From: the human T2T-CHM13v2.0 reference genome, Homo sapiens
Reading direction: 5' to 3' (one strand)
DNA length: 64,000 nucleotides
Assembly (NCBI RefSeq): GCF_009914755.1
Contig: NC_060929.1
Below the pieces are notes generated by a model that made no database searches, was not told the DNA's origin, and worked only from the letters and a program-made list of their open reading frames with translations. The translations under genes were made by a program, and so were the position numbers. Numbering within the stretch: the stretch's first letter is position 1; the number at the start of each line of letters is the position of its first letter. This document shows, piece after piece, positions 43,974-55,132 of the stretch.

Positions 43974-44054
43974 CTTCACTACAGCTGTCCCCCGGCTGCC
44001 CTGCCGGCCACTGTCTACTCCCGCTCCGAGCTTGTTTACAACCAGGGTAGCCAT
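43974..44054 (-). CDS. TRIM23: TRIM23 exon 1 coding part (MATLVVNKLGAGVDSGRQGSRGTAVVK)
   Basis: ATG at 44054 in good context (AGGATGG), GTGAG donor, within the CpG island; 81 nt. Confidence 0.97.
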
Positions 44055-44454
44055 CCTCGCAGGGGAAGCGCCACAGAAACAGCCTTCAGAGTCCTCAACT
44101 GAGAGGCGGGGTTGAGCCACCTACCCAGAGGCCTCTGCGCACGCCACCGGCGCACAGGCGCAGTAGGACACTGGGCGCCGCTCAGCCGACTCTTACTCCT
44201 CCTCCCCGCAATCGTCGGGTGGTTAGTTGCACAGCCTCGCGCATGGGCACTTTTGTTATTTTTCATTATGTAGTCTGCAGCTGCTGGAGGAAAGACAAGA
44301 AAAAAAAAGAAGGGACAAAACGATTAAAGTTTTGGGGTGAAACTCCAGATCCTTTAATGATTTTTCCTCTCGAATCGCAAACCAGCCAGGGCGTGAACTG
44401 AGGGCGGTGAGGGGGTACGGGCATCTCCCTGCATGCAACGCGGCTTTTGTATAA

Positions 44455-44474
44455 ACTACAAATCCCAGCATGCC
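44455..44474 (+). promoter_or_regulatory. ZNF143/THAP11 (SBS, ACTACA-type) motif
   Basis: ACTACAAATCCCAGCATGCC closely matches the ACTACAnnTCCCAnnATGC consensus typical of bidirectional promoters. Confidence 0.8.
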
Positions 44475-44475
44475 A

Positions 44476-44485
44476 CTCTCTCTCT

Positions 44486-44525
<40 letters not shown>

Positions 44526-44528
44526 AAA
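44476..44528. repeat. (CT)7-T30-A10 tract in the promoter centre
   Basis: T run 44489-44518 directly followed by A run 44519-44528. Confidence 0.95.
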
Positions 44529-44844
44529 CTCCGGCAACGTTGGCCTTTGGGAGGCCGCGTATTGTTACCTAGGGGTGGTTTCTTTTCCTGCAGTCGCGAT
44601 GTGTGATTGCAGATGGAAAACAAAGTATTTTATGCCTACGTTTCTAAGATAGAAGAAATGGACTTGTTGAAAAGAAGCCAGTTTGTAAAGGACACAGTAG
44701 GAGAATTTAAGGTACCACCACCAGAGAGAGGTTGAGAGTGCGTTTGACTTTTGGTTTTGTCAAACGCGAGGTTTTCCGTTTCCTTCCGGGGCAAGTTGAA
44801 CCTGTCCAGCCCCCGTAGGCTGTGGGTCAAAAGTGCCGGTCAAA

Positions 44845-44890
44845 ATGGAAGTGAATCCCCCTAAACAGGAGCACCTGCTGGCGCTAAAAG
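44845..44890 (+). CDS. TRAPPC13: TRAPPC13 exon 1 coding part (MEVNPPKQEHLLALK+G)
   Basis: Strong Kozak AAAATGG; donor AAG|GTAAAC at 44891; 46 nt. Confidence 0.95.
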
Positions 44891-46240
44891 GTAAACTTTT
44901 GCGAACCTGATTCCCCCTTTTCTGTTTCCTTGCATTCCCTACTTATCGAAGCCTTTGCCATGTAGGCCTCATCCTTCTTAAACACTCAGTGCTCGCCCTC
45001 CTGCTCTGTCCTTTGCCGCCAAGCGGGAGGAAGCGATTTCTCCTGGATGCTTTTTAGGTTTATGGGCCCCTTTCTAGAACGAAATAGATACCTGGTAAAT
45101 CGTTCTTTCTGATCTGTGCTGCTTCAGTCACGAGATTTTAGCCGCAGAAGCTGACGTCCCGCTCCTACCGTGGAGATCTCTGTGAATTACAGCGGGCATC
45201 CAAAGTGCTTTTTCCTTCTGTCTCTTGTTTCTTCCTGTGGCACTGACGAAGTTAATCAGGCTTCAGCTTCCCCTGTAAAATTAGTATTGCATGACAGTAG
45301 TGCAGAGAATTTAGCAATACATAGTAATACAACATATAACTTAGATTTATTCAAAACAAACTGCAGTTTACTTCAAATCACTGTGTATGTGGGAAATATG
45401 TCCGAGATCTAATGTCAACTCTCATTTTTTGTACACAGCCATTTTGAGTAAGTTTGGTGATTTAATTAGATCATTATTTAGGAAAAAACAGCAGCACTTT
45501 TTTTTTTAGGACAATTTTTTTAATGCCTATTTTCTGGAAACCTTTTATTTGAAATCTTTTCAGCTTTATTTTATTTGTTTTTTACTACAACAAATGCGCT
45601 TTTTGTTTCTTGGATGCCTTAATATATGGTTAACAATGACTTCTTGAATGAGCTGAGGAAATGCTCAATAAACATTCGGGTTCAATTGAATTGCGCTTAC
45701 TTTACTTACGGCATCCATTTTGAGGAACGCCTTATCCTTCCCATTATGATGTAGTCATCAGACTTTCTAGAAGCTCATCAGTCTCATATAATGATGCCTG
45801 TGTTAGCGAGATTGTCTCTTACTGTGGAACTTTGTAATGTTTAGTGATACAGTGATGGGACCTGTAAGCTTAACCTGAGAAATGATCTAGACTAAAATGG
45901 AGATTAAAATGGATTGTTACTCGTGGAGAAGAGGGAAAAGAAGAAAAGCAACTAATTGTCGTGTTCTTTATCTCACAATCTCACTTCAAGTATGTGGAGT
46001 AAATATTAATTCTCAGAGTTTAAGTAACTTTTCCAAGATCACATAGCTAGTGATTGAGGCAGTGTTTCAACGCAAGGCCTGCCTCTCTTTCCAAGAGTCC
46101 GTGTTGCCTCCTAAAGAATGAAGCAGCATTCTCAGAGATAATTCCTCTACCAGCTACTCCGATGGGAATTTGGAACAGTTCTATTAACTGCTACGTGTGA
46201 TTTATACAAATTAGAAGCTATTAAAAACAGTTAAATTGCA

Positions 46241-47408
<1,168 letters not shown>

Positions 47409-48176
47409 GTCATCCCTTGAGTATAACACTGATTGACTTTAGACAACAAGAGAATTTCTCAGTGCCATATTTTACAATGTGAAAGTATAAGGAACAGGGA
47501 AGAAAAACATTAGTGCATCATTAGTTCTTGAAAGTATATATGATAACATTTAGATCCATATTTAAAATATGGATGTTAAAGATCACAATTATTTATGAAT
47601 TTGAGAGTTGTCAGATCTGTTAGTGGGCAGTATCAGTAGGTAAAAATAATGAAATTATTTCTTCTAACTCTTCAGAATCAGACAGTGATTCTATTGTGAA
47701 ATGATGACAAGAATCCATACTCATGGTTATCCTAGCAGTGGGAGAACCCTCATCAAGTAATTCTCTAATGATTTTTGGGGAGAAGGGATTCAACTTATTT
47801 TTTTCTGCTGTTGTTAGGATGTGAAAAAGTCTGTTTTATGGCTCTTACAGCTTTGGGCCTGATTAGCAAGCCTAACTTGCAGATATTGGAAGGCTCCATT
47901 CTTGAGCCTATGCACCATATGCTGGAATTTATTATCAGTGACTTAATTTGGGGCAACTTGAGGACTTCTGTGCTCTAAGAGAAAAAAATAGGAGTCTAGA
48001 CTTCTTGTTCTCTTCCAAACTGGAATTCAAAAGCCATGGTATTGGGGTCTCCATACTGTTTAATTGCCTGGATTATGAGGAGAAGACAGTGTCACAAAAC
48101 TGGTTCTTAGCCTGGTTAAACCATATTAGCAAAGTTAAACCATATTAATGGTTTTAGTTTTTACTACAGAGAATGA

Positions 48177-48796
<620 letters not shown>

Positions 48797-49355
48797 ATTA
48801 GAATTTACAGTGATTTCATTGTCCTCAATTTAGTTGCCTCAAATTTTTAAATATTACATTTTTTGTTAATTCATATGAAAACAATATTTTAAGAATCATT
48901 CATTTACTCTTTGTTTCTGCTAAAGTTTTAAGACTATTATTACTTAATATATTAATATCGATACTTCCAAGTCCTTTATATCTATTGAGTTAAACATGTT
49001 GACTACTAGCATTTTTAGGCAGGAAGTGATTTTATAGGGCATCTAGTTCAGATCCCTTATTTTGGTAAGAGAAAGAATTTTCAGGTTTGTAGATTACATT
49101 CACATTTACCAATAGCACTTTGGTAAAATACCACATTGGGATTGGTTTTTGGTTTTTGTTTTTCCTTTTCTCCCTGCCTGTTGGTAGGCAGGGTATCCCT
49201 ACCATATCTTATTCTTTGCAATACTTCTACTTTAGGTCCTGTTTCCCTCTGATTTGGCAAGAGAGACAATCTTGCAATAATAAATTAACATTCTAGCTCT
49301 GAGGAGTTCAACTAAGAAATTTTCTCATCACTAAGAGTAACTGGATTACTGCAGA

Positions 49356-50108
49356 ATGACTACAGAAGTAATATTACATTATCGACCATGTGAGAGTGAT
49401 CCCACACAACTGCCAAAAATTGCAGAAAAAGCAATTCAAGACTTTCCTACTCGTCCGCTATCAAGATTTATACCTTGGTTTCCATATGATGGGTCCAAGC
49501 TTCCACTCAGACCTAAAAGATCACCACCTGTGATTTCTGAAGAGGCAGCTGAAGATGTGAAACAGTACTTAACCATTTCAGAACATGATGCTAAGTCACA
49601 CAGTTATGATTGCACAGTAGATCTATTGGAGTTTCAACCTAGCTTGAAAAAGCAGCATTTAACCTGGTCACACACACTGAAGGAACAGACTAATTCTGGA
49701 AATCTGGGTAAACAATCAGAAAAGGGAAAACAGCACAAGAGGAGATCTTGGAGTATTTCCCTTCCCAGCAATAATTGTACTAAAAACGTTTCTCCTTTGT
49801 CTAAAAAATTGCAAGATAGTTTAAAGGCACTAAATTTACACTCACTTTATAGAGCAAGATGGACAATAGAACACACTATTTGTAACAGCCAAACTCTGGA
49901 AGACATTTGGACAAAACTCAATCAAATTATTAGGCACAATGAACTTCCATCTTGTAATGCTACAATTCAGAGGCATTTAGGCCAAATATGGGTGTTCTGT
50001 GATATTATGTATTGTGAATATGTGGGAAGTCTTCTTAAAGGAAGGTTAGCTCTTACTGGAAAAATTAATTTATTTGTGCATAAATATGGTGTTATTTTTA
50101 GTATGTAA
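49356..50108 (+). CDS. SHLD3: Shieldin complex subunit 3 (RINN1), intronless 250-aa CDS nested in TRAPPC13 intron 1
   Basis: Longest ORF in the window, not repeat-derived. N-terminus MTTEVILHYRP...FIPWFP...LPLRPKRSPP (REV7-binding region) recognised. Acceptor at 49235/49236 and downstream AATAAA 50452-50457. Confidence 0.96.
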   Translation: MTTEVILHYRPCESDPTQLPKIAEKAIQDFPTRPLSRFIPWFPYDGSKLPLRPKRSPPVISEEAAEDVKQYLTISEHDAKSHSYDCTVDLLEFQPSLKKQHLTWSHTLKEQTNSGNLGKQSEKGKQHKRRSWSISLPSNNCTKNVSPLSKKLQDSLKALNLHSLYRARWTIEHTICNSQTLEDIWTKLNQIIRHNELPSCNATIQRHLGQIWVFCDIMYCEYVGSLLKGRLALTGKINLFVHKYGVIFSM

Positions 50109-50451
50109 TGAATTTCACTGATTGTCAAAAAGAATATTCTGAATGAAATGAATATGGATTGAAATAGATAAAATAATTTTTACAGGTTTTAAAATTTTTA
50201 ATGACTTTTTAGAATTCCTAGGCTTGTCAATTAAGTCAAGAAATTGCTGAGTTCTACTTATTGGCAGCCTTCTTTTAAATGTGATAAATTATTGTTTACA
50301 CTGAATTTGAAGGTAAAAATGTTCTGTTCCTTTTGTTACAAACTGTGATTGAATTAGTCATGAATTAAGTTGTATAGTTTGGATTTTGGTTAATCTCTAA
50401 AATCTAATTTTACTGTATTTTTTTCCTTACCTCAAGTGTAATTTTTTAAAA

Positions 50452-50457
50452 AATAAA
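50452..50457 (+). terminator. SHLD3: Candidate intronic polyA signal for SHLD3
   Basis: AATAAA ~340 nt after the stop; variants AATACA (~50675) and ATTAAA (50809-50814) lie further downstream. Confidence 0.55.
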
Positions 50458-51130
50458 ACTCGAAACAATTCTCTTTGGAGTGCTATTTATGTGGCATGAA
50501 TGTAGTTCAAAGTGGGAGACTAGTCTAGATTTATAATGATGTTTCCAAAGATATGTAATAACAATTGATAGGCTGTTTTCAAACAACGATACAAAATGTA
50601 TACTTTGCCTAAAACGATAATGTATCCTGTTTTGAAGGAAAGTATCAAATGTTGAATGATTGTTTATTTCTTCTAATACAGATAATTCAGTATTAATGAT
50701 AGTTAGTGCTAATTATTACTTGGCTGATGATTGGAGTCATTGTAGGTTCCCCATAAGCATAATCTTGTAATTGGTTTTACACATCACCTCATAAAAATGC
50801 TCAAAGGGATTAAAACAGTAAAAGTTTTGTAGAAGCATGTATGTTTGTTTAACATATTTAAATGCCTACTTTGCACTAGGTGCTAGGATATACTAGGGAA
50901 GGAGACAGACATGGACCTTGCCCTCACACAGCTTACATGTCATTACTACTATTAAACACACCAGCTCCCTAAGAAAAATAAGACTGCACTTAACTAGGAA
51001 TATAGACATGTTTACCTTGAAGCTCAGTGCCTGTCATGGTAGGAGCTTGATAATGCATGGTAAACATTCCCTTCAGAGGGATTCTTCATAGCCTGAGATG
51101 GCTGAGGTTGCTTAAAATGGAAGCCCACTA

Positions 51131-55063: not shown

Positions 55064-55132
55064 TGATGCGGCTGACTAAGCCTACTTTATTCACCAATAT
55101 CCCAGTAACATGTGAAGAGAAAGACTTACCTG
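55064..55132 (+). CDS. TRAPPC13: TRAPPC13 exon 2 ([23 protein letters not shown])
   Basis: Long pyrimidine tract plus CAG; GTATGG donor; 69 nt; restores the LALKVMRL motif. Confidence 0.95.

What the first reader, a model, noticed from the sequence alone, without database searches (positions are those of the whole stretch)
49188..49358. The TRAPPC13 start codon becomes a 20-aa uORF that would gate SHLD3 translation
Seen: joining exon 1 (strong Kozak AAAATGG, 46 coding nt) to 49236 gives MEVNPPKQEHLLALKGPVSL*, with TGA at 49250-49252. A 103-nt ATG-free spacer follows, then the SHLD3 ATG in a weaker context (AGAATGA) and a different frame. The other acceptors I checked also terminate: 49188 gives the same frame plus 16 aa, 49192 hits TAG, and 49355 gives GAA TGA. 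None yields a fusion protein. Inference: SHLD3 must be made by reinitiation or leaky scanning, which would keep it scarce and could make it sensitive to eIF2-alpha phosphorylation or DENR/MCTS1.
Basis: partly seen in the sequence, partly recalled or inferred. Interest (0 to 1): 0.75.

Follow-up and report, generated by a model that had tools for sequence, protein, structure and literature searches.

The report
TRAPPC13 start codon heads SHLD3 uORF
The only curated human SHLD3 messenger RNA begins with the first exon of its host gene TRAPPC13, so that gene's start codon opens a short decoy reading frame ahead of SHLD3, which probably dampens rather than gates production of this DNA-repair protein.

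Summary
The arithmetic is exact. Exon 1 (44811-44890, ATG 44845) joined to 49236 gives a 20-codon uORF ending at TGA 49250-52. A 103-nt ATG-free spacer follows, then the SHLD3 ATG at 49356 in another frame. All 311 AG acceptors upstream of that ATG were tested and none gives a fusion.

Neither the early stop nor the spacer exceeds chance. A stop falls within 5 codons at 27% of entry points, and 16-20% of local 103-nt windows lack ATG.

In the Noderer 2014 table the uAUG scores 77 and the SHLD3 AUG 104. The paper's leaky-scanning formula, as I inferred it, puts about 34% of scanning ribosomes past the uAUG.

The uORF stop lies downstream of the only exon junction, so it should not trigger EJC-dependent NMD. 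The leader holds one AUG uORF, not the ATF4-type pair. The penultimate codon CTC is not among the DENR-dependent codons named by Bohlen 2020.

Predicted tenrec and hummingbird isoforms fuse TRAPPC13 exon 1 in frame to SHLD3, so exon sharing looks old.

Most likely this is a constitutive 2-3-fold damper and a by-product of a nested gene. I found nothing in print. It is a new member of a known kind.

The parts
44811..44890 (+). First exon shared by TRAPPC13 and SHLD3. It has a 34-nt leader followed by 46 nt that code for TRAPPC13.
   Evidence: Hub annotation for the exon bounds. Sequence and donor AAG|GTAAAC were read.
44845..44847 (+). TRAPPC13 start codon, which is the uAUG of the SHLD3 mRNA. 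It is the only ATG in exon 1.
   Evidence: The context GUCAAAAUGGA scores 77 (CI 71-83) in Noderer 2014 Table S2.
49236..49252 (+). The part of the uORF specific to exon 2: the last two bases of the junction codon, four codons, and the TGA at 49250-49252.
49253..49355 (+). ATG-free spacer of 103 nt, 34% G+C, between the uORF stop and the SHLD3 AUG.
49338..49340 (+). TAA in the SHLD3 frame, six codons upstream of the ATG. It closes the frame that is open in the tenrec and hummingbird fusion models, which have Tyr at this position.
49356..50108 (+). SHLD3 coding sequence of 250 codons plus stop, all within one exon.
   Evidence: There are 161 orthologue clusters at E<=1e-3. The AUG context UGCAGAAUGAC scores 104 (CI 97-112).
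49236..50696 (+). Terminal exon of SHLD3, lying inside TRAPPC13 intron 1. AATAAA is at 50452, and only a variant AATACA (50675-50680) lies before the annotated end.
   Evidence: Hub annotation.
48999..49355 (+). Genomic ATG-free run of 357 nt ending at the SHLD3 ATG. Of it, 237 nt lie upstream of the 49236 acceptor.
   Evidence: It is the second longest of the gaps between the 1,198 ATGs in the window. About 4.2 ATGs are expected, and 29 of 5,000 dinucleotide shuffles have none.
49188..49235 (+). Possible 5' extensions of exon 2 through the tandem acceptors at 49188 and 49192, both behind good pyrimidine tracts. Both still give closed uORFs of 36 and 29 aa.
49334..49337 (+). Candidate acceptor TAAG|AG, with the exon starting at 49336. 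I infer it matches the junction used in the tenrec and hummingbird fusion models. In human it gives a 16-codon uORF stopped by TAA 49338, 15 nt before the AUG.
   Evidence: The homology is inferred from the protein N-termini.

Best explanation
SHLD3 is a nested gene with a single coding exon. It is expressed from the TRAPPC13 promoter and first exon as an alternative terminal exon inside TRAPPC13 intron 1.

A side effect is that the TRAPPC13 AUG opens a 20-codon uORF on the SHLD3 mRNA. This uORF runs across the only splice junction and stops 17 nt into the terminal exon. I read it as a constitutive, moderate damper of SHLD3 synthesis, about 2-3-fold, and not as a switch.

The main route to the SHLD3 AUG is leaky scanning. 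The uAUG has a mid-range context and sits only 34 nt from the annotated cap site, while the SHLD3 AUG has a better context. Reinitiation after the short uORF across the 103-nt spacer adds a minor share.

The uORF stop lies downstream of the only junction, so it should not cause EJC-dependent NMD.

Shown: the anatomy and the context scores. Inferred: that the uORF is translated (the same leader and AUG make TRAPPC13), the size of the effect, and the split between the two routes.
For: Anatomy
- The anatomy and the single upstream AUG are exact.
- None of 311 possible acceptors gives a fusion.

Start-codon contexts
- The uAUG scores 77 (CI 71-83) and the SHLD3 AUG 104 (CI 97-112) in Noderer 2014 Table S2.
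- In the sorted table of 141 parts, the uAUG lies near part 79 and the SHLD3 AUG near part 17.
- The paper's equation is not held as text. The form X=(1-0.86*E1/100)*E2/E1 gives 0.53 and 0.12 for the two mouse Hagh rows, against the printed 0.52 and 0.12.
- Applied here, that form gives initiation at the uAUG of 0.66, leak of 0.34 (0.29-0.39 over the CI), and X of 0.46. This is my calculation.

Reinitiation and NMD (Russell 2023, passages)
- AUGs within roughly the first 50 nt are poorly recognised (the eIF4F 'blind spot').
- A 9-codon uORF that captures nearly all ribosomes represses 5-10-fold in HeLa, and a 24-codon uORF represses more.
- NMD needs termination at least 50 nt upstream of an EJC.

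Other sequence checks
- The leader has no unusual structure: -44.2 kcal/mol against -47.1 +/- 4.2 for shuffles, z = +0.69.
- There is no Rfam match in 44000-51000.

Other species
- Mouse Shld3 exon 2 is 'the sole coding exon' (King 2024, passages).
- Predicted tenrec and hummingbird isoforms begin with the TRAPPC13 exon-1 peptide.
- A pig SHLD3 orthologue is named TRAPPC13 in UniRef.
Against: - No ribosome-profiling, CAGE or reporter data for this leader could be seen.
- The context scores come from a reporter system with a different leader.
- The constant 0.86 and the form of the equation are inferred from two rows.
- An older Ensembl TRAPPC13 model starts near 44500. That would add four more upstream ATGs (44599, 44613, 44632, 44658), and on such mRNAs repression would be stronger.
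- The 357-nt ATG-free run reaches into the intron. This hints at 5' ends or exon forms that the annotated model does not explain.
- A long stretch downstream of the uORF stop could still trigger EJC-independent decay.
Confidence: 0.58

Rival explanations
1. The uORF is a regulatory gate. Nearly all ribosomes start at the uAUG, SHLD3 depends on reinitiation, and its output therefore responds to eIF2-alpha phosphorylation or to DENR/MCTS1.
For: - The uORF is short (20 codons) and the spacer is 103 nt. [quoted passage not shown]
- Castelo-Szekely 2019 found that AUG uORFs and longer uORF-CDS distances predict DENR dependence (passages).
- Bohlen 2020 reports penultimate Leu-CTT enriched among stop codons that accumulate 40S subunits without DENR. 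CTC is read by the same inosine-bearing tRNA-Leu; that point is recalled, not tested.
Against: - The uAUG context scores only 77 and lies 34 nt from the cap, so much leakage is expected.
- There is one uORF only, with no second inhibitory uORF as in ATF4.
- CTC is not among the codons Bohlen 2020 names (ATG, GCG, CTG).
- The regression in Castelo-Szekely 2019 explains little (adjusted R2 0.057).
- SHLD3 appears in none of the 3 Bohlen supplementary files.
- A simple reinitiation-dependent ORF would fall, not rise, under eIF2-alpha phosphorylation (inference).
Confidence: 0.12
2. The uORF is largely bypassed at the RNA level. Most SHLD3 protein comes from RNAs with other 5' ends, starting either downstream of 44847 or from an unannotated start inside the intron just upstream of exon 2. 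Such RNAs carry no uAUG.
For: - The ATG-free run before the SHLD3 ATG is 357 nt and extends 237 nt upstream of the acceptor. It is the second longest run in the window, and 29 of 5,000 shuffles match it. The annotated mRNA cannot account for that.
- The longest ATG-free run on the minus strand (44472-44932) covers alternative TRIM23 5' exons, so such runs do mark leaders in this window.
- TSS placement at this promoter differs between annotations, 44811 against about 44500.
Against: - RefSeq lists a single SHLD3 transcript with the shared exon (hub annotation).
- The stretch 48999-49235 is AT-rich with no CpG-containing trinucleotide and shows no promoter-like composition.
- Eight runs of 305 nt or more occur in 64 kb, so the run is notable but not extreme.
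- Fusion models in two other species use the shared exon.
Confidence: 0.15
3. The uORF matters mainly through something other than ribosome capture. Either termination far from the poly(A) tail destabilises the SHLD3 mRNA (EJC-independent decay), or the 20-residue peptide has an activity of its own.
For: [quoted passage not shown]
- About 1.4 kb lies between the uORF stop and the annotated 3' end (and hub annotation).
Against: - No exon junction lies downstream of the uORF stop, and Russell 2023 stresses termination upstream of an EJC as the main trigger.
- Only the last 5 residues of the peptide are not TRAPPC13 sequence.
- Neither SHLD3 nor TRAPPC13 appears in the 5 supplementary files of Sandmann 2023 on Ribo-seq ORFs. 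An ORF that shares its start with an annotated CDS may have been excluded there by design.
Confidence: 0.05

Closest known systems
ATF4 / GCN4-type uORF control (delayed reinitiation)
   Same: Both have a short AUG uORF upstream of the main ORF with room to reacquire initiation factors. Here that is 20 codons and a 103-nt spacer.
   Different: ATF4 needs at least two uORFs, the distal one overlapping the CDS (as described). The SHLD3 leader has one AUG uORF and it does not overlap. No stress induction is predicted.
DENR-MCTS1-dependent uORFs (Bohlen 2020; Castelo-Szekely 2019)
   Same: The uORF starts with AUG and lies comparatively far from the CDS. Both features predict DENR dependence.
   Different: It is not a 1-2 codon uORF. 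Its penultimate codon is CTC, not ATG, GCG or CTG. SHLD3 is not in the published tables.
Human bicistronic or host-nested genes such as PIGY/PYURF, SNURF-SNRPN and MIEF1 with its uORF microprotein
   Same: One mRNA carries an upstream ORF that is translated ahead of a downstream ORF encoding a known protein.
   Different: Here the upstream ORF is not a separate gene product. It is the first 15 codons of another gene's CDS, cut short by alternative splicing, and the two full proteins come from mutually exclusive isoforms of one promoter.
Predicted TRAPPC13 exon 1-SHLD3 fusion isoforms in tenrec (P0084) and a hummingbird (P0104)
   Same: Both use the same first-exon peptide and the same SHLD3 exon, and the residues just before the SHLD3 Met are alike (D-Y-C in mammals, D-S-Y-C in the bird).
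   Different: In those models the frame is open and the TRAPPC13 AUG would start an SHLD3 that is 23 residues longer. In human a TAA (49338-40) sits at the Tyr position, and every acceptor gives a closed uORF. The two models are computer predictions, 2 of the 120 clusters listed.

Membership tests
AUG-initiated, non-overlapping upstream ORF | An AUG upstream of the main AUG in the mature mRNA | tested here: met
   There is one ATG (44845) in the 200-nt spliced leader. The exon structure is taken from the hub annotation.
AUG-initiated, non-overlapping upstream ORF | An in-frame stop before the main AUG, in a different frame from or closed off from the main ORF | tested here: met
   TGA at 49250-52 lies 103 nt upstream of the main AUG. 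The frame offset is 1.
AUG-initiated, non-overlapping upstream ORF | The uORF is translated (footprints or initiation peaks) | not testable with these tools
   Translation is inferred only, because the same leader and AUG start TRAPPC13. Footprints at the uAUG cannot be assigned to either isoform. Only 49236-49252 and junction reads are specific to SHLD3.
AUG-initiated, non-overlapping upstream ORF | The uORF lowers main-ORF output | not tested
   I estimate a 2-3-fold effect from context scores and published reporter behaviour. No measurement exists on this leader.
Reinitiation-permissive short uORF | A short uORF with an adequate intercistronic distance | tested here: met
   The uORF has 20 codons and the spacer is 103 nt. 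An optimum of about 78 bases is stated in the abstract of PMC6614817. Russell 2023 found a 24-codon uORF already more repressive than a 9-codon one, and found a 115-nt spacer of little help for small uORFs in HeLa.
ATF4/GCN4-type stress switch | Two or more uORFs, the last one inhibitory or overlapping the CDS | tested here: not met
   The annotated leader has a single AUG uORF. Extra upstream ATGs exist only if transcription starts near 44500.
DENR-MCTS1-dependent uORF | A start-stop or 1-2 codon uORF, or a penultimate codon of ATG, GCG or CTG | tested here: not met
   The uORF has 20 codons and its penultimate codon is CTC. The codon list comes from Bohlen 2020 passages.
DENR-MCTS1-dependent uORF | Main-ORF translation efficiency falls on DENR loss | tested here: inconclusive
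   SHLD3, FLJ26957 and CTC-534A2.2 are absent from all 3 supplementary files of Bohlen 2020. TRAPPC13 is present.
uORF-triggered EJC-dependent NMD target | The uORF stop lies at least 50 nt upstream of an exon junction | tested here: not met
   The only junction (44890|49236) is 14 nt upstream of the TGA (and hub annotation). The rule is as quoted.
Nested gene expressed as an alternative terminal exon of its host | It shares the host's promoter and first exon, and has its own acceptor and poly(A) site inside a host intron | tested here: met
   - Hub annotation shows the shared exon.
- Acceptor 49236 has 15 of 20 pyrimidines, against 17 of 20 for TRAPPC13 exon 2 at 55064.
- AATAAA is at 50452 and AATACA at 50675.
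- Which isoform dominates was not measured.

The most novel reading that the evidence does not exclude
The TRAPPC13 AUG may be an evolutionary toggle for SHLD3. In some amniotes it would be SHLD3's own start codon, giving an in-frame fusion that is 23 residues longer, as in the tenrec and hummingbird models. In human a single stop (TAA 49338-40) and the 49236 acceptor turn it into a uORF. Shieldin dosage would then be tied to one promoter and one AUG shared with a membrane-traffic gene. Its setting by leaky scanning or reinitiation would be open to change with translation state or with 5'-exon variants, and that could affect end-joining versus recombination and PARP-inhibitor response.
Probability: 0.12. 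Interest if true: 0.6.

Novelty: new member of a known kind. Interest (0 to 1): 0.33.

Why it matters
SHLD3 is a subunit of shieldin. Shieldin counteracts DNA end resection and acts pathologically in BRCA1-mutated cancers by blocking homologous recombination (abstracts of PMC8440562 and PMC11753365, listings).

If the shared exon and uORF set SHLD3 dosage, three practical consequences follow (inference):

1. Promoter or CRISPRi perturbations aimed at TRAPPC13 also hit SHLD3, and the reverse.
2. A start-loss or context variant at 44845 would remove TRAPPC13 and at the same time de-repress SHLD3.
3. Non-coding hotspots assigned to the 'SHLD3 promoter' (2026 preprint, passages, which never mentions TRAPPC13) lie in a promoter that serves both genes.

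The mechanism class is well known. Russell 2023 cites Calvo 2009 for uORFs in nearly 50% of mammalian 5' UTRs. The value here is in annotation and in experiment design for one medically relevant gene, not in a new principle.

Tried and rejected
- **Papers not held.** Mudge 2022, Noordermeer 2018, Gupta 2018 and a guessed id for Kozak 2001. Whether the shieldin discovery papers remark on the TRAPPC13 exon therefore could not be checked.
- **Literature searches.**
  - SHLD3 + uORF: 0 papers.
  - SHLD3 + 'upstream open reading frame': 0 papers.
  - SHLD3 + TRAPPC13: 3 papers. One was opened and lists the two genes separately. The other two were seen only as listings.
  - CTC-534A2.2 or TRAPPC13: none of the 20 papers listed, of 118 found, holds CTC-534A2.2.
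  - A six-term search was too broad to help.
- **Sandmann 2023 supplements.** No SHLD3 or TRAPPC13 entry in the 5 files. This is weak evidence, because an ORF sharing its start with a CDS may be filtered out.
- **The intronic-polyadenylation paper (PMC12548281).** It has TRAPPC13 rows, but the site printed lies about 35 kb into the gene and is not the SHLD3 exon. That file was cut when stored.
- **Counting CTC-penultimate rows in Bohlen's tables.** Phrase search found nothing, apparently because tabs are not matched.
- **Processed pseudogene.** I looked for one that would preserve the exon 1-exon 2 junction. SHLD3 exon 2 has one match in the genome, itself.
- **Structured RNA in the leader.** No Rfam hit, and the fold is no more stable than shuffles.
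- **Conservation.** Cross-species conservation of the stop and the spacer could not be tested, because no vertebrate genome DNA is reachable with these tools.
- **Closed supplements.** bioRxiv supplements are closed, so the position of the SHLD3 promoter hotspot is unknown.

Full report

- Exon 1 (44811-44890) has a single ATG at 44845, followed by 46 coding bases and the donor AAG|GTAAAC.
- Joined to the acceptor at 49236, it gives a 20-codon ORF that ends at TGA 49250-49252.
- 103 bases without ATG follow.
- The SHLD3 ATG is at 49356, one base out of frame with the upstream ATG, and opens a 250-codon ORF ending at 50108.
- I extended the test to every AG between 44950 and 49356. None of the 311 gives a read-through into SHLD3.
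- A TAA at 49338-40 closes the SHLD3 frame six codons before its ATG.

**Chance.** The individual features are ordinary for this AT-rich DNA.

- A stop within five codons of entry occurs at 2,756 of 10,156 positions of intron 1.
- 103-nt windows without ATG make up 10,274 of 63,898 in the window and 2,006 of 10,071 in intron 1.
- 963 of 5,000 dinucleotide shuffles of the spacer also lack ATG.
- The leader is not unusually structured: -44.2 kcal/mol against -47.1 +/- 4.2 for shuffles.
- The region 44000-51000 holds no Rfam family.

So the finding follows from the annotated exon structure. It is not a statistical signal in the sequence.

**What it is.** By the hub's annotation, SHLD3 and TRAPPC13 share the promoter and exon 1. 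The whole SHLD3 CDS sits in one terminal exon inside TRAPPC13 intron 1.

- The two mRNAs are therefore mutually exclusive outputs of one transcription unit. Exon 1 is spliced either to 49236 (15 of 20 pyrimidines before the acceptor), followed by polyadenylation, or to 55064 (17 of 20).
- The annotated 3' end at 50696 has no AATAAA or ATTAAA nearby, only AATACA at 50675. An AATAAA lies at 50452.
- Because the leader and the AUG are the same as in the TRAPPC13 mRNA, ribosomes should start there on the SHLD3 mRNA as often as on the TRAPPC13 mRNA. This is inference. Footprints at the AUG could not tell the two isoforms apart.

**How strongly it should act.** Measured data say the opposite.

- In the Noderer 2014 reference table of all 65,536 contexts (GCCACCAUGGG = 100, top value 150), the upstream context scores 77 (CI 71-83) and the SHLD3 context 104 (CI 97-112).
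- The paper's leaky-scanning equation is not held as text. The form X=(1-0.86*E1/100)*E2/E1 gives 0.53 and 0.12 for the two mouse Hagh rows, against the printed 0.52 and 0.12.
- Applied here, that form gives about 66% initiation at the upstream AUG and about 34% leakage (29-39% over the CI).
- SHLD3 initiation by leaky scanning alone then comes to about 0.46 of that at the upstream AUG. This is my calculation.
- The upstream AUG lies only 34 nt from the annotated cap site. Russell 2023 cites an eIF4F 'blind spot' of about 50 nt in which AUGs are poorly recognised (passages). That would add to leakage.

Reinitiation is possible, since the uORF has 20 codons and the spacer is 103 nt. The abstract of PMC6614817 puts the optimum around 78 bases. 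It is probably the minor route, for three reasons drawn:

- In HeLa a 9-codon uORF that captures nearly all ribosomes still represses 5-10-fold.
- A 24-codon uORF represses more.
- A 115-nt spacer helped little for small uORFs.

Together this points to a 2-3-fold damper, not a gate.

**Decay and stress.** The uORF stop is 14 nt downstream of the only exon junction. The usual rule for EJC-dependent NMD is termination at least 50 nt upstream of a junction, and that rule is not met.

- The leader has one AUG uORF, not the ATF4-type pair.
- The penultimate codon is CTC. Bohlen 2020 names ATG, GCG and CTG as DENR-dependent. It also reports Leu-CTT enriched at main-ORF stops that accumulate 40S subunits without DENR.
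- That CTC shares its tRNA with CTT is recalled, not tested.
- Castelo-Szekely 2019 found that AUG uORFs and long uORF-CDS distances predict DENR dependence, but with adjusted R2 of 0.057.
- SHLD3 is absent from Bohlen's three supplementary files.

The stress and DENR ideas therefore remain speculation.

**Other species.** A search with the SHLD3 protein gave 161 clusters at E<=1e-3 among 431 candidates, from mammals to birds and reptiles. 120 were listed.

- Two of the 120 are 273 residues long and begin with the TRAPPC13 exon-1 peptide joined in frame to SHLD3. They are a tenrec 'isoform X5' (P0084) and a hummingbird 'isoform X5' (P0104).
- A search with residues 1-40 of the tenrec model found only these two and one rodent cluster, 3 of 53 candidates.
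- The human frame reads E-stop-L-D-Y-C-R-M where the tenrec model reads E-Y-P-D-Y-C-R-M.
- The matching human acceptor (exon start 49336) would give a 16-codon uORF stopped by that TAA.
- Thirteen rodent clusters start at an in-frame Met five codons upstream, at the position of the human CTG at 49341.
- In mouse, Shld3 exon 2 is 'the sole coding exon' (King 2024, passages).
- A pig orthologue carries the UniRef name of TRAPPC13.

The shared exon thus looks old, although the fusion models are computer predictions. Conservation of the upstream AUG says nothing about uORF function, because TRAPPC13 needs that AUG.

**Open points.**

- The ATG-free run before the SHLD3 ATG is 357 nt (48999-49355) and reaches 237 nt into the intron. 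It is the second longest of the gaps between the 1,198 ATGs in the window. About 4.2 ATGs are expected, and 29 of 5,000 shuffles have none. The annotated mRNA does not explain the intronic part. Longer exon forms or an internal start are possible, and so is chance, since eight runs of 305 nt or more occur in the window.
- Bohlen's table lists two uORFs for an older TRAPPC13 model at transcript positions 100 and 133, ending in codons found at 44644-52. That places its 5' end near 44500, with four more ATGs upstream.

**Novelty.** No paper in the searchable library links SHLD3 to a uORF or discusses SHLD3 together with TRAPPC13. The shieldin discovery papers and the GENCODE Ribo-seq ORF paper were not held.

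The mechanism class is common. Russell 2023 cites Calvo 2009 for uORFs in nearly 50% of mammalian 5' UTRs. This is a new, unremarked member of a known kind. Its practical relevance is for perturbation experiments and variant interpretation at a locus that encodes a shieldin subunit.

Noticed in passing
window 48999-49355: The ATG-free run before the SHLD3 start is 357 nt, not 103. It extends 237 nt into the intron upstream of the acceptor. It is the second longest run on the + strand, and 29 of 5,000 shuffles match it. The annotated mRNA does not explain the intronic part.
   Followed up: partly
window 44472-44932 (minus strand): The longest ATG-free run on the minus strand (461 nt) covers the alternative TRIM23 5' exon 44569-44799 and the antisense of the shared TRAPPC13/SHLD3 exon 1.
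   Followed up: no
window 44500-44660: Bohlen 2020's table lists two uORFs for an older TRAPPC13 model, at transcript positions 100 and 133. These map to ATGs at 44599 and 44632 with TAG at 44650-52, which implies a 5' end near 44500. Four ATGs (44599, 44613, 44632, 44658) would precede the TRAPPC13 AUG on such RNAs.
   Followed up: partly
window 49279-49284; 50452-50457; 50675-50680: A canonical AATAAA lies inside the SHLD3 5' leader, 44 nt after the acceptor. The annotated 3' end (50696) has only AATACA upstream of it, and a canonical AATAAA lies at 50452.
   Followed up: no
P0084 (tenrec) and P0104 (hummingbird), residues 1-24; window 49335-49358: Predicted isoforms fuse the TRAPPC13 exon-1 peptide in frame to SHLD3. 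Human has a TAA where both models have Tyr.
   Followed up: partly
P0009 (pig): A 251-residue protein, 86% identical to human SHLD3, is named 'Trafficking protein particle complex subunit 13' in UniRef. This suggests that pig gene models place SHLD3 inside the TRAPPC13 gene.
   Followed up: no
window 49341-49343; rodent clusters such as P0049 and P0080: Thirteen rodent SHLD3 clusters start five codons earlier at an in-frame Met, for example M-D-Y-C-R-M. Human has CTG at that position.
   Followed up: no
SHLD3/TRAPPC13 promoter (position not given): A 2026 preprint lists a recurrent cancer hotspot in the 'SHLD3 promoter' (FDR<25%) and never mentions TRAPPC13 (passages). Its supplements are closed, so its place relative to exon 1 is unknown.
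   Followed up: no
window 44481-44529: A long T run followed by an A run lies about 300 nt upstream of the annotated start site, between the TRIM23 and TRAPPC13 promoters.
   Followed up: no
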